From a virus, in the IMG/VR virus record IMGVR_UViG_3300022748_000017, positions 11,988 to 75,987 of that record: 64,000 nucleotides of DNA. One strand, written 5' to 3'. Below are positions 21,362 through 60,859 of the stretch, in pieces. Within the stretch, counting starts at the first letter, position 1; each line of letters begins with the position of its first letter. A program made the translations under genes and the position numbers. Below the pieces are notes generated by a model that saw nothing but the letters and a program-made list of their open reading frames with translations, searched no databases and had not been told where the DNA came from.

Positions 21362-21525
21362 GGAAGCGCCCATGCTTTCCTGTTTTCCACAATCTTGCCT
21401 TCCCGTGAGCAGTAAGCAAGGGTGTAGTGGATTTCACGGTCAGTCCAACCTGTAATTTCCCGCAGTTCTTGGCGAGTTAGGGGGCCATGTTCCAGCAACT
21501 TCTGGAGTGCGTATGTTTTGGTCAT
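21358..21525 (-). CDS. Small winged-HTH-like protein (55 aa)
   Basis: Manual translation LLEHGPLTRQELREITGW; coupled at both ends. Confidence 0.5.
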   Translation of the reverse strand: MTKTYALQKLLEHGPLTRQELREITGWTDREIHYTLAYCSREGKIVENRKAWALP

Positions 21526-22337
21526 GCTGTCTTCCTCAAAACTTGGTTAATCTGCTGACGAATGTGGTCAGGCATTGGAGCCGCTTTTTGCAAATCTGCC
21601 TTAATTTTGAGCAATGCAGGGTCAGGGCCAGTATTTGTCGGTGGAACTGTTGTCCGGGCAACGTCAGCAGCTATTTGGGCAAATGACTTGTTTTCCTTTA
21701 ACTCAAATACATCTTGCCATCCACTTGTAATTGATTTCTCCAATATAGCGACCACATCTTGTCCTTGAGTTTTAAATTTTTGCAATTTTCCAACTATTAG
21801 CTTTTTAGCAAAGTCGGTTGCAGGTTTTTTAATTCGCTTTCGCATTTCTATGAAAGCATCCCAAGTCTCTGTAGGAATCCAATCTGGCAAAACAAAGGCA
21901 ACATCAGTTGCCGCGCTCTCAGGCGCTTTCCTTTCCAGTTCCTTTCCTTTCCTTTCCTTTCCAGTAGGTAGTGGTTCAGTAGGACTACGGTAGTCATACT
22001 GTAAATTGCATAAGTCCTTGATTTTGCTAGCAGTTTTCTTGTTTATAACTTGATGTTTTTCAAAGTTGACAATCTTGCCATAAGTCTTTCCATCAAAGCC
22101 TGAATATACCTCTATGTAACCTATCTCTGATAGCTCCCGTAGAAGTACGGTAGTAGTAAATGACAATGTTCTTAATGGAAAAATATCAGATTCAACCAAC
22201 TTTGGATTGGCATTGAAATATCCTTCATCATCGCAATGATTGAGAAGACCAATAGCCAATAAAGCCGCTTCAGGTGAAATTCCAGCAAGCAATTCGTCAC
22301 GCCAAAATTCAGGCTTAATTGTTCTGATTCGTGCCAT
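21522..22337 (-). CDS. Replication initiator / replisome organizer, copy A
   Basis: MARIRTIKPEFW N-terminus; LPDWIP...W..F..MRK C-terminal domain. Confidence 0.8.
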   Translation of the reverse strand: MARIRTIKPEFWRDELLAGISPEAALLAIGLLNHCDDEGYFNANPKLVESDIFPLRTLSFTTTVLLRELSEIGYIEVYSGFDGKTYGKIVNFEKHQVINKKTASKIKDLCNLQYDYRSPTEPLPTGKERKGKELERKAPESAATDVAFVLPDWIPTETWDAFIEMRKRIKKPATDFAKKLIVGKLQKFKTQGQDVVAILEKSITSGWQDVFELKENKSFAQIAADVARTTVPPTNTGPDPALLKIKADLQKAAPMPDHIRQQINQVLRKTA

Positions 22338-22704
22338 GAATTTTCTCCAAAAACATTTTTGTCAAATCATCTTTTGTTAAGACAGATAAAACATCAACAA
22401 GACAATCCATTTCATATGAACCCCAATATCCCATCTTGACAAGTTCTAATACAACATTTGCTTTAGACGCATCAAGGGCTGTATGTTCATCAGAATGGCA
22501 ATCAGCACAAAGAGTAATTATTGAGTCTTGATCGTAATCCCAAGGGCCTTCTGCAAAAGGATGATATTGAGGATGATGTGCATGAAGTGTTTTGTCTTTT
22601 GAACCACAATTCCTGCAAGTAAAGTTATCTCGTTCATAAACGCGCAAACGCATTTGTTGCCAACGAGGATCAAGCAATTTTTCAGAGTATGACTTTTTTG
22701 CCAT
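22315..22704 (-). CDS. HNH endonuclease, A only
   Basis: RDNFTCRNCG...LHAHH...ITLCADCH. Confidence 0.8.
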   Translation of the reverse strand: MAKKSYSEKLLDPRWQQMRLRVYERDNFTCRNCGSKDKTLHAHHPQYHPFAEGPWDYDQDSIITLCADCHSDEHTALDASKANVVLELVKMGYWGSYEMDCLVDVLSVLTKDDLTKMFLEKIHGTNQNN

Positions 22705-22722
22705 AAAAATCTCCAATAAAAA

Positions 22723-22820
22723 ACCCCTGAAAGCTGGTGGGACTAGCACCAAACCTTCAGGGGTCAGCCTGTGAAGGCTTAGATGTATTTGCGTCTAGTC
22801 CACGAAACATCTAAGCCTTC
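22723..22820 (-). ncRNA. Two-hairpin kissing-loop leader RNA/attenuator, copy A
   Basis: Two long hairpins with complementary 7-nt loops (GGACTAG/CTAGTCC); covaries with the copy at 59973-60068. Confidence 0.7.
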
Positions 22821-22827
22821 TAGGAAA

Positions 22828-22856
22828 AGTATATCACTTCCTTGGCGGTTTGCCAA
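22828..22856 (-). promoter_or_regulatory. Sigma70 promoter with extended -10, copy A
   Basis: TTGGCA, 17-nt spacer ending in TGA, TATACT; same geometry in B. Confidence 0.7.
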
Positions 22857-23046
22857 AGTAAATCTTGGTCTTGTTATCGTCCATCAACTTGAACGTGATG
22901 GTCCAGCCAGCTTCTTTCAGGTCACTGATCCTGCGGTGAGGGGTGACACTTGGAAGGTGTTTCACAATCTCCACACTGGTCACACCCTGCTTGCGTTGCA
23001 TCAGCAGCTTGAGTTTGTCCAACTGCGTCATCTTCTTGGCTAACAT
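22834..23046 (-). CDS. Small HTH DNA-binding protein, copy A
   Basis: GVTSVEI...RRISDLKEAGWTI; homologue at 60084-60302. Confidence 0.7.
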   Translation of the reverse strand: MLAKKMTQLDKLKLLMQRKQGVTSVEIVKHLPSVTPHRRISDLKEAGWTITFKLMDDNKTKIYFGKPPRK

Positions 23047-23141
23047 CTTTCTTTCCTTTCTTGCCGAAAATCCGGTCAAAGTTTGATGAGAAAACTTCAC
23101 TGTTTACGCTAAACGGCCTTGGAGCCGACCCTTTTCCACCA

Positions 23142-23606
23142 TCAGACACTTGGTTTTGCCCTGCTGTAAGTGTGGACGGAATCACCCGTAAATGCCGGGT
23201 TAGCTTTAATCTTGGTCTGCATCACAGCAAGTTCAGATTTGCTGAACAGCCCTTTGGCGGTGTTGCGCCAATCAAAAGCATTGCCATGCGACTTTTTCCA
23301 GCCTTCAGGCCAGTGCGATTCAATGACGATAGACTTTGTTTCCACAGGCTTAATGTCTTGGACATACTTAACCTTTGACTGATCTACCAGTTCGACAATA
23401 AAAATGTTGCGTAGGCGTTTGTTGTCATAGCCGCCCACACGCAATTCAATTACGCCATCAGCAATCAGCTTATTGCGGATAGCAGCAGCCGATACGTTGA
23501 ATTTTTGATTGACCATGTTTTGAATTCTCTTGTCGTTCTCGGGTCCGTTTTTCAGACGGTCCAAGTAATATGCAATTGCACGATTGTCTTCACTGATAAA
23601 AGTCAT
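23142..23606 (-). CDS. Conserved hypothetical protein, copy A
   Basis: Homologue at 60395-60859 (HWPEGW.KSHGNAFDWR). Confidence 0.7.
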   Translation of the reverse strand: MTFISEDNRAIAYYLDRLKNGPENDKRIQNMVNQKFNVSAAAIRNKLIADGVIELRVGGYDNKRLRNIFIVELVDQSKVKYVQDIKPVETKSIVIESHWPEGWKKSHGNAFDWRNTAKGLFSKSELAVMQTKIKANPAFTGDSVHTYSRAKPSV

Positions 23607-23772
23607 TGATGGATACCTCTCGGTTGATGATGCGCTCGATGGCGCGGGTTAGGAGTGCCAGCATAGCCGCTTCAACGTCTTGTGGATGGTCAACATAGTG
23701 CTTGACTAGCGTATACCCATAAGTCGTTAAAGCGTCTGCTGCATTGGCTTCGGCTTGGTCTGGAGTTGTCAT
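23590..23772 (-). CDS. Conserved hypothetical protein, copy A
   Basis: Homologue at 60843-61025. Confidence 0.7.
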   Translation of the reverse strand: MTTPDQAEANAADALTTYGYTLVKHYVDHPQDVEAAMLALLTRAIERIINREVSINDFYQ

Positions 23773-23879
23773 GCCGACAAGCGTATCATGTCTAGCTTGA
23801 CTTTTTTCTAGGTGTTTTCACCTATGCTTTTTTGTGGGAATCTGGTTTACAGTGGAGGCTCAACAAGACAGGAGTTCAC

Positions 23880-31626: not shown

Positions 31627-34191
31627 TCACAAGCCAAAGATGATGTTAAGAGCGATTGTTTTGCTATAACTGACGGGGCCAGTAGAGCCAGTTGGACCTG
31701 TCGGACCATTTGTGCCATTGGCTCCTGTTGGGCCTGTTGGGCCAGTTGGGCCAGTTAAACCAGTTGACCCAGTGCTACCTGTAGGTCCGGTTGGGCCAAC
31801 AGCACCAGTAGCGCCTGTAGAACCAGTCGGTCCTGTAGGACCTTGAGCGCCAGTTGCACCTGTCGCACCAGTGCTTCCTGTTGGGCCAGTCGGACCTGCA
31901 ATTCCTTGAATGCCTTGAGGCCCGGTAGGACCAGTAGGTCCAACCGCTTGTGTGTTAGTCCACTTTGTACCGTTCCAGACCAAAGCATCGCCAGTAGACA
32001 ATGTGGTCAGGCCAACGTCACCCTCATACTGACCAAGTACACCACCAAATGATGGACGCACAAACAAAGAGCCATTACTTGCGGATGAATATACACAAGC
32101 ACAAACTTGAACCTTTGGATTTGGCGCAGATGGAATAGTTGCAGTCAAGCCACCAGCAACAGAAGGGTCGAGATACAGAATTTGACCCGCCGTAAATGCC
32201 GATGTGTTCAGGTTGCGAACCAAACCAAATGATGTGATGTAGCCCCAGCCATTCAGTGCAATATCCTGAGTAGCAATGCCCATGACATACGATGCTTGCG
32301 AGGCTGTAAGGCCAGTTGCTGGTGCACCAGTCAATGCGCCAGAAGCGCCAACAGTACCCGTGAACATCACGACTTGACCGTTGGTAATTGCGCTCGATGC
32401 TTTGATTCGGAAATACTGTTCTTCACCAATCTGCTGTGTAGCAGTGCCATCAGCCATCACCAACGAAAGCGTTTGGTTGCCATCAGCAGAATCCCAATAC
32501 AACGTACCCGGAGTTGTCGGCGTTGTTGCTGGTGTGGTGTTAAACAGAATCCAATCAGGCGTGCTTAAACTGGTAACACCAGTCACAGCGCCAGTAGGCA
32601 TTGGGCCTGTGGGACCTGTTGGCCCAGTATTGCCTTGAATTCCTTGGATGCCTTGCACGCCTTGTGGGCCTGTCGGGCCAGTGTCACCTTGAACGCCCTG
32701 AAGACCCTGTGGGCCTGTAGGGCCAATCACACCTTGAATCCCTTGAGGGCCAGTAGGTCCAGTTGCGCCTACTTCACCTTGTGCGCCAGTCGGCCCCGTG
32801 GGACCCTGAATGCCTTGGATGCCTTGAGAGCCCGTTGGCCCCGTAGGACCCACCACACCCTGAATGCCTTGGGGGCCAGTAGGACCAACCTCACCTTGGA
32901 TGCCTTGCGCTCCAGTAGGACCCGTTGGACCAACATCGCCTTGTACCCCTTGAATGCCTTGAATACCTTGAGGTCCCGTAGGGCCAACATCGCCTTGCGC
33001 TCCAGTTGGGCCAGTAGGACCGACTTCACCTTGGATGCCCTGAGCGCCCGTTGGACCTGCGACCCCTTGTATGCCTTGAGCGCCTGTTGAACCAGTCGGG
33101 CCAACCTCACCCTGAATGCCTTGAGCGCCTGTGGGGCCAGTCGGGCCTTGTGCGCCAGTTGGGCCTTGAGGACCAACAATCTGACCAGCATCAAACCAAG
33201 ATGTGCCGTTCCATACATACAGATTACCTTCAGAAGTAACGATGTATGCGTCATTAGGAAGATTGCCCACCATTGGCAGGTCGCCCACAGTAGCAACTTC
33301 ACCTTTAAGGTTAATGGATGTGCCTTGTGCGCCTTGCGCCCCAGTAGGGCCAGTTGGGCCTGTTACGCCCTGAATGCCTTGAGGTCCAGTCGGGCCGACA
33401 TCGCCAGTAACGCCTGTTGGTCCAGTGGCTCCTTGAATACCCTGAATGCCCTGAGCGCCCGTTGGGCCAATAGGACCAGTATCCCCTTGAATACCTTGAG
33501 GACCAGTAGGACCAGCAACACCTTGAACGCCTTGGTCGCCCTGAATGCCCTGTGGGCCAGTTGGACCGACTTCACCTTGGATGCCTTGAGTGCCTTGAGC
33601 GCCTGTCGGCCCAGTAGGTCCAGCAACAGTTGAATCAGCACCTGTCGGACCAGTAGGGCCAACATTGCCTTGAATACCTTGTGCGCCTGTCGGGCCAGTC
33701 GGACCATCAATGCCCATGTAGCCAGTTGGACCTGTTGGGCCTGTGGCTCCATTTGCCCCATTAGCGCCAGTCGGCCCAGTGGGGCCAGCAATACCTTGAA
33801 TGCCCTGTTCGCCTTGCGGTCCTGTTGGGCCTTGAATGCCCTGAACCCCTTGAATACCTTGGACACCCTGCGGACCAGTCGGACCAACATCACCAGTAGT
33901 ACCAGCCTGTCCTGTTGGGCCAGTTGCCCCCGTTGAGCCAGTTGGACCCGTAGGACCAGCATTGCCCTGCGGACCAGTTGGACCTGTGCCTGTTGGCCCC
34001 ATAGCGCCCGTAGGACCAGTAGGTCCAGCATTTCCTTGTGGGCCTGTAGGACCACTACCAGTTGGCCCCATAGGGCCAGTTGGACCCGCTACACCACGAT
34101 CAATGCGTGCTTCAACGCGAGGCTGTGGAACAACCTCAAGACTGACGTTGTTGCCATCAAGAACCGTAACCTTCAAGTTGCTCATAGCCAA
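31627..34191 (-). CDS. Collagen-like tail fibre/whisker protein
   Basis: Long Gly-X-Y runs (GPT, GIQ, GAQ) interrupted by globular domains. Confidence 0.9.
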
Positions 34192-59155: not shown

Positions 59156-59953
59156 TCATGCTTTCCTCAGTACGGAGTTAATCTGCTGTCGGATGTGATC
59201 AGGCATCGGCGCGGCTTTTGCCATGTCTTGCTCGATCTTTACCAAAGCTGGGTCTGGTGCGGTTGAACCAGGAACGGTGATTCGGGCAACGTCTGCGGCT
59301 TGTTGGGCAAATGTCTGCTTTGGTGCAACCCAGTCGGCTTTAAAACTTGCCCATGTCCGCAAGCAGCATTCTTTAATTGCATCGTCAACAGTCCATCCAG
59401 CTTTGTTCACTTGAGTAATGAACATATCCCATGCTGTTTGAGTAAGGGGAGCATCTTTCTTTTTTCTGATGATCAGCCAATCATTCCAAAGTTGTTCATC
59501 AATGGAATCAGGACGAGAAACAATAACTGCCTTTTCTTTCTTTGGTTTATGGTTATTGGTTAGTGGTTGTTGGTTAGTGGTTAGTTGAACATCTGTTGAT
59601 GTTTCGTTGAACACCTGTTGAACACCTGTTGAACGACTGTTCAACCTACGTTTAGCAGATGCTCTACCAGCGTTGGATTTCTTTTCTAAAAACGCACGGT
59701 AATCAGCAATTTCTTGATCACATCTTGATTGCCTCCACCCGCCTTCTGTCAGTATAAAAAAACTATCTAAGATCAATCGAACGTCTTTTTCTGGCGCTCC
59801 TATTTGAAAAGCCAGTATTTCTGAATCTGGTTTAAGAGGTTTTTCACTGTCGTAATACATCCATAAAAGCCTCAAATAAGCCATTGCTTGGCTATCTGAA
59901 AGCCTTGCCGTGGCTTTGATGAAGTCACCAATGTGGTGTTGGTAATAGTGCAT
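59156..59953 (-). CDS. Replication initiator with a DUF1376/YdaU N-terminus, copy B
   Basis: MHYYQHHIGDF...LS....AY.RLL..YY; C-terminus shared with 21522-22337. Confidence 0.85.
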   Translation of the reverse strand: MHYYQHHIGDFIKATARLSDSQAMAYLRLLWMYYDSEKPLKPDSEILAFQIGAPEKDVRLILDSFFILTEGGWRQSRCDQEIADYRAFLEKKSNAGRASAKRRLNSRSTGVQQVFNETSTDVQLTTNQQPLTNNHKPKKEKAVIVSRPDSIDEQLWNDWLIIRKKKDAPLTQTAWDMFITQVNKAGWTVDDAIKECCLRTWASFKADWVAPKQTFAQQAADVARITVPGSTAPDPALVKIEQDMAKAAPMPDHIRQQINSVLRKA

Positions 59954-59972
59954 TTGCACCCCTAAAAAGAAA

Positions 59973-60068
59973 ACCCCTGAAGGCCCGTGGTACCAGCACG
60001 AACATTCAGGGGTCAGCCTGTAAGGGCTTAAACATATCTGCGACTGGTACTCGCAATGTTTAAACCCT
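59973..60068 (-). ncRNA. Two-hairpin kissing-loop leader RNA/attenuator, copy B
   Basis: Loops GTACCAG/CTGGTAC are complementary. Confidence 0.7.
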
Positions 60069-60077
60069 CTTAGCAAA

Positions 60078-60106
60078 ACTATATCACTGTTTTGGAGGTT
60101 TGCCAA
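60078..60106 (-). promoter_or_regulatory. Sigma70 promoter with extended -10, copy B
   Basis: TTGGCA, 17-nt spacer ending in TGA, TATAGT. Confidence 0.7.
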
Positions 60107-60394: not shown

Positions 60395-60859
60395 TCAGAC
60401 ACTTGGAACCGCCCTGCTATATGTGTGGATTGAATCACCCGTGAAATGCGGGTTTGACTTGATGTTGGCTTGCATTGTTGCCAACTCCGCTTTGCTGAAC
60501 AATCCTTTTGCCGTGTTTCTCCAATCAAAGGCATTGCCGTGCGATTTTGGCCAGCCTTCGGGCCAGTGCGTTTCAATGACAACTGATTTGGTCGGCTCTG
60601 GCGCAACTTCTTTTGCAAATTGAACTTTGTTTGCGTCTACCAAGCCAACCATGTAAATGTTTCGCATACGCTTACTGTCGTATCCAGAAACATACATTTC
60701 GATCACGCCATCACGGATTAGCTTGTCACGAATGGCAGCACCTGAAACACGGAATTTTTGGTTGATCATGTTCTGAATCAACTTGTCGTTCACTGGGCCA
60801 GTTGCAAGCCGATCCAAGTAATACTGGATGGCCAAGTTGTGTTCATTGGTAAAAATCAT
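60395..60859 (-). CDS. Conserved hypothetical protein, copy B
   Basis: Homologue of 23142-23606. Confidence 0.7.
   Translation of the reverse strand: MIFTNEHNLAIQYYLDRLATGPVNDKLIQNMINQKFRVSGAAIRDKLIRDGVIEMYVSGYDSKRMRNIYMVGLVDANKVQFAKEVAPEPTKSVVIETHWPEGWPKSHGNAFDWRNTAKGLFSKAELATMQANIKSNPHFTGDSIHTYSRAVPSV

What the first reader, a model, noticed from the sequence alone, without database searches (positions are those of the whole stretch)
22723..22856. Covarying kissing-loop RNA between a promoter and the replication initiator (both copies)
Seen: on the minus strand a TTGGCA-17-TATACT promoter (extended -10) points straight into hairpin 1 (GAAGGCTTAGATGT...ACATCTAAGCCTTC, apical CGT/ACG stem, loop GGACTAG). 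An invariant 8-nt linker (ACAGGCTG) follows, then hairpin 2 (ACCCCTGAA...TTCAGGGGT, apical TGGTG/CACCA, loop CTAGTCC) ending in a U-tract just before the RBS. The two 7-nt loops are exact reverse complements. Copy B (59973-60106) has the same architecture with different stems and loops GTACCAG/CTGGTAC, so two compensatory changes keep the loop-loop pairing. In A an HNH gene sits between the element and the initiator. Inference: a loop-loop pseudoknot acting as an attenuator or translational switch, or a roughly 110-nt small RNA, controlling phage replication. This would be conceptually like the pseudoknot/antisense control of IncI-type plasmid rep genes. Phage-specific loop sequences could give an incompatibility or exclusion code. 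I do not recognise it as a named family.
Basis: partly seen in the sequence, partly recalled or inferred. Interest (0 to 1): 0.8.

Follow-up and report, generated by a model that had tools for sequence, protein, structure and literature searches.

The report
Kissing-loop leader before phage replication genes
Just upstream of the DNA-replication genes of a group of uncultured freshwater phages sits a self-contained ~105-base RNA unit (own promoter, two hairpins, stop signal, ribosome site) whose two hairpin tips always match each other letter for letter although the letters differ from phage to phage; this is a real, uncatalogued RNA element that most likely meters replication-gene expression.

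Summary
Each copy has a sigma-70-type promoter, hairpin 1, an 8-nt linker, then hairpin 2, which is a terminator. A Shine-Dalgarno word follows 8-10 nt later.

I collected 92 further copies (43 distinct) from viral and freshwater metagenome contigs. They carry nine loop "alleles". The two 7-nt loops pair in 287 of 287 cases, always Watson-Crick. The stems hold 99 G-U pairs against 8 A-C, so the sense RNA is the selected molecule.

Rfam 15 has no match. No copy turned up in the species genomes scanned, and the record shows no integrase or CI-type repressor.

In sister phages the same promoter slot instead holds an int-alpA-like RNA (Rfam RF02996), which also has a covarying loop-to-tail pairing.

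Best reading: a leader/attenuator cassette for replication genes. The loop-loop kiss sets read-through of its own terminator, and the terminated ~100-nt RNA may address same-allele leaders in trans, as in P4 immunity. The structure and its covariation are shown; the mechanism is inferred.

Earlier notes of this scan describe the same design on other DNA in many phages (for example e1-5347449).

The parts
22828..22856 (-). Copy A promoter: -35 TTGGCA (22856-22851), 17-nt spacer, TG-extended -10 TATACT (22833-22828). The predicted start is about 22821/22820, the first base of hairpin 1. The -35 lies in the last codons of the upstream gene.
   Evidence: scores it 10 of 12 with TG. All 52 distinct upstream contexts in the family keep a TAnnnT hexamer 7-9 nt before hairpin 1.
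22773..22820 (-). Copy A hairpin 1: 14-bp lower stem, 3-nt bulge on the 3' side, 5-bp apical stem, and the 7-nt loop L1 GGACTAG (22801-22795).
   Evidence: Six lower-stem pairs and four apical pairs change on both sides.
22765..22772 (-). Copy A linker ACAGGCTG. GGCUGA (running into hairpin 2) is conserved in the family, while the first bases vary.
22718..22764 (-). Copy A hairpin 2, an intrinsic terminator: G+C-rich 9-bp lower stem, small internal loop, 5-bp apical stem, 7-nt loop L2 CTAGTCC (22746-22740), then a T run (22723-22718).
   Evidence: L2 always begins CUNR.
22702..22714 (-). Copy A Shine-Dalgarno GGAG (22714-22711) and start codon (22704-22702) of the downstream gene. These belong to the cassette.
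   Evidence: An SD-like word lies 8-10 nt after hairpin 2 in 57 contexts, whatever the downstream gene.
22315..22704 (-). HNH endonuclease gene, inserted between the element and the initiator in copy A.
   Evidence: phrog_119, E 3.7e-15.
21522..22337 (-). Replication initiation protein of unit A.
   Evidence: phrog_1408, E 5e-38.
22834..23046 (-). Small winged-helix protein gene whose 3' end carries the -35. It is an optional neighbour: many relatives lack it.
   Evidence: (HTH_39, weak: 19.8 bits against a cut-off of 21.3).
23142..23606 (-). 154-aa protein ending in ...YSRA, the conserved upstream neighbour of the cassette slot. It has an N-terminal winged helix.
60078..60106 (-). Copy B promoter: TTGGCA, 17-nt spacer, TG-extended TATAGT.
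   Evidence: 10 of 12, with TG.
60022..60069 (-). Copy B hairpin 1, with loop L1 GTACCAG (60050-60044).
60014..60021 (-). Copy B linker ACAGGCTG.
59964..60013 (-). Copy B hairpin 2 / terminator, with loop L2 CTGGTAC (59996-59990) and a T-rich run.
59156..59963 (-). Copy B Shine-Dalgarno (AGGGG, 59963-59959), ATG (59953) and the replication protein gene of unit B (primosomal / O-like).
   Evidence: phrog_6451, E 4.5e-32; phrog_678.

Best explanation
The element is a portable expression cassette for phage replication genes. It consists of a host-type promoter, a ~105-nt leader with two hairpins, an intrinsic terminator (hairpin 2) and a ribosome-binding site.

The 7-nt loop of hairpin 1 pairs with the 7-nt loop of the terminator hairpin (a 'kiss'), and this contact sets how much transcription runs on into the replication gene.

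My preferred working model, all of it inferred, is this:
1. On a nascent transcript, the finished hairpin 1 catches loop 2 as soon as the tip of hairpin 2 has formed.
2. With only 8 nt between the two long hairpins, the stacked kiss and a fully zipped terminator stem strain each other, so the kiss favours read-through.
3. Transcripts that do terminate are released as a ~100-nt RNA with both loops free.
4. That RNA can occupy loop 1 of new transcripts of the same allele, in trans, and so push them to terminate.

This would make replication-gene expression fall as phage genome copies, and the small RNA, accumulate. The nine loop alleles would keep related co-infecting phages from cross-talking.

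Shown: the RNA, its strand, its parts and the selected loop-loop pairing. Inferred: the effect on termination, its sign, and any action in trans.
For: Structure:
- Both copies fold into the two hairpins at z -7.7 and -6.0.
- 42 of 43 variants fold with both 7-nt loops free.

Covariation in 41 distinct copies:
- 98.9% of cells are paired, against 34-43% when partners are slid by 1-3 columns.
- 19 pairs change on both sides.
- The loop-loop helix is paired in all 287 cells, with 4 of 7 pairs changed on both sides.

Alleles:
- Nine alleles in 92 loci are all 7 of 7 Watson-Crick; non-cognate combinations reach at most 6.
- On a loop-masked tree the alleles switch at least 16 times, where 8 is the minimum possible.
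- L034 and L075 have 92-98% identical flanks but different alleles.

Strand:
- The stems hold 99 G-U against 8 A-C pairs.
- The covariance model scores 125 and 114 bits on the minus strand against 25 and 18 on the plus strand.

Cassette:
- All 52 distinct upstream contexts keep a -10 hexamer 7-9 nt before hairpin 1, and 29 of them have the TG extension.
- score the window's two promoters at 10 of 12.
- A G+C-rich stem is followed by a T run.
- A Shine-Dalgarno word follows 8-10 nt later in 57 contexts, whichever gene is downstream.

Context:
- The downstream genes are replication initiators or an inserted HNH gene.
- The element is better conserved than its flanks.

No other partner: the allele-A 7-mers occur nowhere else in the 64 kb.

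Same slot in sister phages: it holds an int-alpA-like leader that also has a covarying loop-to-tail pairing.

Loop 2 always starts CUNR. From my own knowledge, not tested here, this is the YUNR U-turn motif of fast-pairing antisense loops.

Weak hints:
- Contigs of two RNA libraries bridge hairpin 2 into the downstream gene.
- Both break at the tip of hairpin 1 (22799-22817), where a DNA run goes on.
Against: - No experiment or read-level data shows a 5' end at hairpin 1, a 3' end at the T run, or any effect of the kiss.
- The RNA libraries were available only as contigs and may contain DNA.
- The simple terminator scan did not call hairpin 2, because its stem is interrupted.
- The sign of regulation is a steric argument, not a computation. 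Both hairpins have a bulge or internal loop 5-6 bp below the loop that could act as a hinge and let the kiss coexist with a complete terminator.
- The elements are closely related (83% mean column identity, effective sequence number 1.17), so cells are not independent events. Recombination of a loop 1-to-loop 2 tract could move allele pairs without new mutations.
- The record shows no lysogeny genes, so 'immunity' in the prophage sense has no support here.
Confidence: 0.5

Rival explanations
1. The element is a purely intramolecular fold. The kiss locks the two hairpins into a compact 'rectangular' domain, with each hairpin hinged at its bulge. This domain serves as a processing or stability signal in the early polycistronic mRNA (for example an RNase III or RNase E site, or a 5' protective structure for the rep message). 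There is no action in trans and no specificity code; the alleles arise by drift through compensatory change.
For: - The two hairpins are of similar height (19 bp against 15-17 bp).
- Both carry an irregularity 5-6 bp below the loop, and the linker length is fixed at 8 nt (7 in one copy).
- The element lies inside a co-directional operon in every context.
- Contigs of two RNA libraries end at the tip of hairpin 1 where a DNA contig continues (weak hint).
- The int-alpA-like leaders in the same slot have an intramolecular loop-tail pairing.
Against: - Drift should leave intermediates. The stems show 7% G-U cells, but the kiss shows 0 of 287.
- Loop letters differ between backbones that are otherwise nearly identical. 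This points to selection for change or exchange of the address rather than slow drift.
- A processing signal does not need its own conserved promoter.
Confidence: 0.2
2. The element is a stand-alone trans-acting small RNA gene. Its real targets are host or distant phage messages, and its position before the rep gene is incidental. The terminated transcript resembles StxS, which is made from the lambdoid PR'-tR' unit.
For: It has its own promoter and a strong terminator, is about 100 nt long, and ends in a terminator hairpin with a U tail as Hfq-type sRNAs do.
Against: - The only conserved complement of each loop is the other loop. In unit A neither 7-mer occurs elsewhere in 64 kb.
- The cassette always carries a Shine-Dalgarno word and a start codon 19-22 nt after the hairpin, which a free-standing sRNA gene would not need.
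- Nine alleles would require nine covarying external targets.
Confidence: 0.1
3. The element is a promoter-proximal terminator unit read through by a phage antiterminator, in the manner of lambda Q at PR'-tR'. The winged-helix protein encoded just upstream would load at the promoter that overlaps its own stop codon. The hairpins would matter only as a terminator, or as a by-product RNA.
For: - The conserved upstream neighbour has an N-terminal winged-helix DNA-binding fold.
- Its last codons carry the -35.
- The same promoter drives three different leader types that all end in a U-rich tract.
Against: - This leaves the strict loop-loop covariation unexplained.
- The protein resembles generic PadR/MarR-type winged helices only weakly (E about 3e-3). 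It has no Pfam or PHROG family and no likeness to Q.
- Many contexts have other upstream genes.
- This reading is not exclusive of the main explanation.
Confidence: 0.1
4. The element works at the DNA level, near the replication origin. When the region is unwound, the two inverted repeats extrude as hairpins. Because loop 1 and loop 2 are exact complements, the same 7-nt loop is displayed once on each strand. This would serve a sequence-specific initiator, primase or nickase.
For: - The loop complementarity is strictly Watson-Crick with no G-T, as identity across strands would demand.
- The element adjoins initiator genes.
Against: - The stems tolerate G-U on one strand only (99 against 8 A-C), so the other strand's hairpins would be weakened.
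- A conserved promoter, T run and ribosome site frame the element.
- The same allele occurs with unrelated initiator families, and different alleles occur with the same initiator. No protein therefore co-varies with the loops.
Confidence: 0.05

Closest known systems
Satellite phage P4 immunity: CI RNA (seqB) pairing with seqA and seqC in the leader of the replication operon. The related c4 RNAs of P1/P7 are Rfam C4.
   Same: - The RNA is encoded on the sense strand in the leader of the very operon it controls.
- Short complementary words within that leader co-vary between heteroimmune relatives.
- The outcome is premature termination upstream of the replication genes.
   Different: - P4 CI RNA is cut out by RNase P and has a different fold.
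- Its targets are linear stretches, not hairpin loops.
- It maintains lysogeny, whereas this record shows no lysogeny genes.
- No Rfam C4 hit appears even at E 10.
Rep leader pseudoknot and Inc antisense RNA of IncI-alpha / IncB / IncL-M plasmids (ColIb-P9 repZ, pMU720 repA). (Own knowledge.)
   Same: A hairpin loop in the rep leader pairs with a distant word in the same RNA, and a small RNA competes for that loop. Loop letters define incompatibility.
   Different: - In the plasmids the competitor is a true antisense transcript of the other strand. Here the opposite strand shows no promoter or terminator, and the stems are sense-specific.
- The plasmid pseudoknot lies beside the ribosome site and depends on a leader peptide. 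Here loop 2 sits in a terminator loop about 30 nt before the SD, and I did not look for a leader peptide.
int-alpA RNA motif (Rfam RF02996, from the 224 candidate RNAs of PMC5737381; function unknown)
   Same: - In sister phages it occupies exactly the same slot: the same promoter overlapping the ...YSRA stop, directly before rep genes.
- It also has a hairpin loop that co-varies with a downstream word. I saw seven alleles, always 4-6 nt after the UUUC tract.
   Different: - Sequence and fold are unrelated: int-alpA is a three-way junction with conserved CUAG and GAAAAG.
- Its partner word lies after the U tract and is often SD-like.
- The window's element gives no hit to this model.
Countertranscript-driven attenuation of rep genes in pT181 / pIP501 / pAMbeta1. 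(Own knowledge.)
   Same: Loop-loop kissing with a nascent rep leader decides whether a terminator just before the rep gene forms. YUNR-type loops are present.
   Different: Those systems use an antisense RNA and a pre-emptor/terminator alternative pairing. Here no antisense RNA and no conserved alternative pairing was found.
Lambdoid PR' - 6S RNA - tR' unit and its terminated product StxS.
   Same: A constitutive promoter is followed by a short terminated RNA in front of a gene block. The terminated leader can act as a small RNA.
   Different: That unit controls late genes through the protein Q and has no loop-loop pairing. No Q homologue was found here.
phi29 packaging RNA (pRNA). (Own knowledge.)
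   Same: It is a ~120-nt phage RNA with two loops that are complementary to each other and co-vary between phages.
   Different: pRNA is part of the packaging motor of protein-primed podoviruses. It has a different fold, only 4 pairing bases, and no terminator or leader role. The phages here have an ordinary lambdoid-type gene set.

Membership tests
Any Rfam 15 family | Match to a curated covariance model at its gathering score. | tested here: not met
   There are 0 matches in the whole window at gathering scores. At E up to 10 on 22500-23100 only noise appears (best 19.8 bits against a gathering score of 208).
int-alpA RNA (RF02996) | Three-way junction with conserved CUAG ... GAAAAG ... CCUG and a U-rich tail. 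| tested here: not met
   The window gives no hit. Sister loci L148, L200 and L134 do hit (37.0, 34.6 and 27.7 bits against a cut-off of 35.8). It is a positional alternative, not the same family.
P4 CI / P1 c4 type immunity RNA (Rfam C4) | Match to the C4 model, and processing by RNase P. | tested here: not met
   There is no C4 hit at E up to 10. RNase P processing cannot be tested with these tools.
P4 CI / P1 c4 type immunity RNA (Rfam C4) | Complementary words within the leader of the controlled operon that co-vary between relatives. | tested here: met
   Loop 1 and loop 2 form nine alleles, all 7 of 7 Watson-Crick.
P4 CI / P1 c4 type immunity RNA (Rfam C4) | Maintains a prophage or satellite in the repressed state. 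| tested here: inconclusive
   The 76-kb record has no integrase, S24 repressor, HTH_3, ParB or resolvase. No true copy was found in 185,579 species genomes. Undetected lysogeny functions cannot be excluded.
IncI-alpha/IncB rep control | Antisense (Inc) RNA transcribed from the opposite strand of the leader. | tested here: not met
   No promoter-like or terminator-like site for an antisense RNA lies within the element. The stems show 99 G-U against 8 A-C. The model scores 125 and 114 bits on the minus strand against 25 and 18 on the plus strand.
IncI-alpha/IncB rep control | Pseudoknot partner immediately beside the rep ribosome site, coupled to a leader peptide. | tested here: not met
   Loop 2 lies in the terminator loop, about 30 nt before the SD. 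I did not look for a leader peptide.
Intrinsic (factor-independent) terminator | G+C-rich hairpin directly followed by a U run. | tested here: met
   The lower stem ACCCCUGAA/UUCAGGGGU is followed by 5-6 U in all copies. The simple scan missed it because the stem is interrupted. Termination itself was not measured.
Sigma-70 promoter | -35 and -10 hexamers with 16-18 nt spacing at a fixed distance from the RNA start. | tested here: met
   Both window copies score 10 of 12 with the TG extension. In 52 of 52 contexts a TAnnnT hexamer ends 7-9 nt before hairpin 1, and 51 of 52 score 8-10 of 12. Promoter activity was not measured.
phi29-type pRNA | Encoded by phi29-like phages and bound to the portal of a protein-primed genome packaging motor. 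| not tested
   The gene set is lambdoid-like (NinB, exonuclease, O-like initiator). Only the idea of mutually complementary loops is shared.

The most novel reading that the evidence does not exclude
The element is a self-addressed sense-strand replication governor. The terminated leader acts as its own 'countertranscript', because it carries both a loop and that loop's complement. Its concentration therefore reports genome copy number back to the terminator of every same-allele genome in the cell. The nine (or more) loop alleles would be orthogonal address codes, kept diverse by selection, so that related phages co-infecting one cell do not throttle each other. Together with the int-alpA-like and other leaders in the same slot, this would define a widespread class of exchangeable RNA 'address cassettes' in front of phage replication genes.
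Probability: 0.3. Interest if true: 0.85.

Novelty: new variant of a known kind. Interest (0 to 1): 0.72.

Why it matters
Control of replication by loop-loop RNA contacts is textbook for plasmids and for satellite P4, but it is hardly known for ordinary tailed phages. This element offers a compact, well-delimited unit of about 140 bp with nine natural 'address' variants and built-in compensatory controls. It is therefore directly testable in vitro and in reporters.

If the terminated leader acts on its own kind, several things would follow:
- It would be a copy-number or timing device for lytic replication.
- It would be a possible basis of RNA-level interference between related phages.
- It would give a ready set of orthogonal kissing pairs for synthetic attenuators.

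It also gives the first functional context, a replication-gene leader slot, for the orphan int-alpA RNA motif.

Tried and rejected
- **Rfam.** No family matched at gathering scores on the whole window, and only noise appeared at E 10 around the element.
- **GenBank phages.** Only one record holds the element (MW202710.1, a spring-water phage).
- **Species genomes.** A 24-nt pattern found nothing. A looser hairpin-2 pattern gave 12 stretches that all score 14.5 bits or less with the model, so they are chance matches. No host was identified.
- **Third pairing site.** I looked for one at the start codon, as earlier notes found in other phages. There is none: the allele-A 7-mers are unique in 64 kb, and the allele-B words elsewhere are not at homologous places.
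- **Other kissing pairs.** A generic scan of 80 neighbour-defined loci for two closed 7-nt loops that are complements found only this family plus two likely chance pairs. Shuffled sequence gave one.
- **Allele linkage to proteins.** I found no link between allele and downstream initiator or upstream protein.
- **Alternative pairing.** A hand check for a conserved anti-terminator pairing between hairpin 1 and the 5' arm of hairpin 2 found a pairing in copy A only, so it is not conserved.
- **RNA libraries.** Only contigs were available, so no starts, ends or levels can be read. Depth differences between contigs cannot be used. The stretch 23761-23870 lacks cover in both RNA runs, which proves nothing. 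An sRNA peak could not be seen or excluded.
- **Upstream 154-aa protein.** Its fold gave only a generic winged helix.
- **Literature.** Searches for a phage RNA with mutually complementary loops before rep genes found no description. The supplement of PMC5737381 that describes int-alpA is not held.

Full report
**1. What is in the sequence**

Copy A reads as follows:
- -35 TTGGCA at 22856-22851, a 17-nt spacer, and a TG-extended -10 TATACT at 22833-22828.
- Seven bases later, hairpin 1 at 22820-22773. It has a 14-bp lower stem, a 3-nt bulge on the 3' side, a 5-bp apical stem, and the loop GGACTAG at 22801-22795.
- The linker ACAGGCTG.
- Hairpin 2 at 22764-22723, with loop CTAGTCC at 22746-22740.
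- A run of six T, GGAG at 22714-22711, and the ATG of an HNH gene at 22704.

Copy B (60106-59964) is the same, with loops GTACCAG and CTGGTAC.

Further checks:
- The promoter scan gives these two sites 10 of 12 with TG. Each is the only promoter-like site on that strand in 2.6-2.8 kb.
- Both RNAs fold as two hairpins at -54.1 and -52.0 kcal/mol (z -7.7 and -6.0).
- The window is part of a 75,987-bp IMG/VR virus record. It holds two diverged (70-95% identical) phage gene sets in tandem, with one element in each.

**2. More than chance: a family with nine loop alleles**

Three pattern scans recovered copies:
- The linker word in viral contigs.
- Hairpin 2 with a free interior in metagenome contigs.
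- Hairpin 1 alone in viral contigs.

Together with one GenBank phage (MW202710.1), these gave 92 loci and 43 distinct element sequences. Hairpin 1 was never found without hairpin 2.

The loop pairs are:
- GGACTAG/CTAGTCC
- GTACCAG/CTGGTAC
- GGTTCAG/CTGAACC
- GGTCGAG/CTCGACC
- GGACAAG/CTTGTCC
- GTACGAG/CTCGTAC
- GAACTAG/CTAGTTC
- GTACTAG/CTAGTAC
- GGTCAAG/CTTGACC

All nine are 7 of 7 Watson-Crick with their own partner and at most 6 of 7 with any other.

On an alignment of 41 distinct copies, the named structure has these properties:
- It pairs in 98.9% of cells, against 34-43% when partners are slid by 1-3 columns.
- 19 pairs change on both sides.
- The loop-loop helix is paired in every sequence, with four of its seven pairs changed on both sides. 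One position shows all four Watson-Crick pairs.

The copies are close relatives (83% column identity), so cells are not independent events. However, on a tree of the loop-masked backbone the alleles need at least 16 changes, where 8 is the minimum possible. Pairs such as L034/L075 have flanks 92-98% identical yet different alleles in both loops. The element is also better conserved than its flanks.

**3. It is an RNA of this strand, and a cassette**

- The stems contain 99 G-U cells but only 8 A-C cells.
- The covariance model scores 125 and 114 bits on the minus strand against 25 and 18 on the plus strand.
- In all 52 distinct upstream contexts, which encode several unrelated proteins, a TAnnnT hexamer ends 7-9 nt before the first pair of hairpin 1. 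29 have the TG extension, and 51 reach 8-10 of 12 together with a -35.
- Hairpin 2 has a G+C-rich base and a U run. An SD-like word (GGAG in 47) follows 8-10 nt later in 57 contexts, with the start codon 19-22 nt after the hairpin, whatever the gene.

The conserved module therefore runs from promoter to ribosome site. That fits a leader cassette better than a free-standing sRNA gene.

The genes served are replication initiators of several families. In some phages, including unit A, an HNH endonuclease gene is inserted first.

**4. What the loops can pair with**

In unit A each 7-mer occurs only once in the 64 kb, and that one occurrence is in the element. There is no third site at the start codon, unlike some leaders noted earlier in this scan. 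The partner of each loop is therefore the other loop, either in the same molecule or in another copy of the same RNA.

The kiss is exactly the seven loop bases; the flanking bases cannot extend it. Loop 2 always begins CUNR. From my own knowledge, this is the YUNR U-turn motif of fast-pairing antisense loops.

The kiss has no G-U in 287 cells, whereas the stems have 7%. Its predicted duplex energies are -6.9 to -10.7 kcal/mol.

**5. Context in related phages**

I fetched 80 loci by the conserved upstream protein (154 aa, ends ...YSRA). It has no Pfam or PHROG family, and its N-terminal 75 residues fold as a winged helix. In these loci:
- 13-14 have this element.
- 41 have, after the same promoter and before the same kinds of rep gene, a different leader that matches Rfam int-alpA (RF02996; 37.0, 34.6 and 27.7 bits against a cut-off of 35.8).
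- Some have a third type with a long terminator hairpin.

In the int-alpA-like leaders the loop of the last hairpin is complementary to a word 4-6 nt after the UUUC tract. I saw seven different word pairs. In one allele the loop also matches the SD of the rep gene.

The slot therefore takes exchangeable leaders that share one design: a hairpin loop with a co-varying partner further downstream.

Earlier AI notes of this scan report the same design before replication genes in at least 67 other genomes. These are leads, not evidence.

**6. Life style**

The record has no tyrosine integrase, S24 repressor, Cro/CI-type HTH, ParB or resolvase. No true copy exists in one genome each of 185,579 species. 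DNA holders are freshwater and aquatic metagenomes. A prophage-immunity role is thus unsupported; a role in lytic replication is more likely.

**7. RNA libraries**

Two metatranscriptome runs of two studies hold the region, but only as contigs, and they may contain DNA. In both, one contig bridges hairpin 2 into the downstream genes. In both, contigs end at the tip of hairpin 1 (X5 at 22800 and 22808, X6 at 22799 and 22817), while the DNA run continues.

**8. Mechanism**

Shown:
- The parts of the element.
- The strand.
- The selected kiss.

Inferred:
- The kiss modulates the terminator that gates the rep gene.

Here is my steric argument. A fully paired 7-bp kiss stacks coaxially on both stems. 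With 19 bp in hairpin 1 and 15-17 bp in hairpin 2, but only 8 nt between their bases, the kiss and a fully zipped hairpin 2 strain each other unless the bulges act as hinges. If loop 1 catches loop 2 before the lower stem closes, read-through would be favoured. Terminated RNAs would then carry free loops, could block loop 1 of new transcripts of the same allele, and so give copy-number-dependent shut-down.

The opposite sign, or a hinged intramolecular fold with no action in trans, cannot be excluded.

Rapid turnover of loop letters on constant backbones, strict Watson-Crick pairing, the U-turn motif, and different alleles in the two tandem units all fit a specificity code. None of these proves it.

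**9. Comparison and novelty**

In how it works, the element is closest to two systems:
- P4 immunity, where a sense-encoded leader RNA pairs with words in the same leader, co-varies between relatives, and stops transcription before the replication genes.
- The plasmid rep leaders controlled through loop contacts (IncI/IncB pseudoknot, pT181-type attenuation).

It is a member of none of them. There is no C4, int-alpA or other Rfam match, no antisense transcript, and I did not look for a leader peptide. Its architecture also differs.

I rate it a new variant of a known kind. It is a well-supported, uncatalogued RNA motif with an unusually clean natural set of compensatory alleles.

Noticed in passing
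L134:2915-3005, L148:2900-2990, L200:2933-3035 and 38 further loci: In sister phages the same promoter slot before the rep gene holds an int-alpA-like RNA (Rfam RF02996; 37.0, 34.6 and 27.7 bits). The loop of its last hairpin co-varies with a word 4-6 nt after the UUUC tract, in seven alleles (for example TCGTTAC/GTAACGA and AACCTCC/GGAGGTT). In the AACTCC allele the loop also matches the SD of the rep gene. This gives the orphan motif a context and a possible anti-SD role.
   Followed up: partly
L144:2914-3045 and L166: A third leader type occupies the same slot. It has a small hairpin followed by a long branched terminator hairpin with T9 (-52.8 kcal/mol, z -4.4). By eye, the word TTGGCGG of the first hairpin is complementary to an unpaired CCGCCAA inside the terminator.
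   Followed up: partly
window 1-64000 (record of 75,987 bp): The record holds two diverged phage gene sets in tandem, at offsets of about 37.1-40 kb and 70-95% identity. Their kissing-loop alleles differ. Another IMG/VR record (3300020047_001061, loci L149 and L172) also holds two units, again with different leader alleles. Whether these are co-integrates or assembly chimeras is open.
   Followed up: partly
window 23142-23606 (-) and 60395-60859 (-): A conserved 154-aa protein has no Pfam or PHROG family. Its N-terminal part folds as a winged helix (pLDDT 86-91 for residues 11-70), and its C-terminal part carries an invariant KSxGNAF motif and ends ...YSRA. Its last codons encode the -35 of the leader promoter. 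One search confirmed 144 relatives in IMG/VR and kept the best 80.
   Followed up: partly
window 22799-22817: Contigs of two metatranscriptome runs from two studies end at the tip of hairpin 1, while a DNA run's contig goes on. This could be a cleavage site, a reverse-transcription block or chance.
   Followed up: no
window 23874: In RNA run X5 a contig begins here, preceded by sequencing-adapter letters, at the head of the plus-strand (exonuclease/ssb) gene block. It may mark an RNA 5' end, but this rests on a single contig.
   Followed up: no
window 31677-33888: Long arrays of 9-bp-period repeats encode collagen-like Gly-X-Y stretches in the tail region.
   Followed up: no
whole record G000: No integrase, S24 repressor, Cro/CI-type HTH, ParB or resolvase was detected, although the early region is lambdoid-like (NinB, RecA-dependent nuclease, exonuclease, SSB).
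   Followed up: yes
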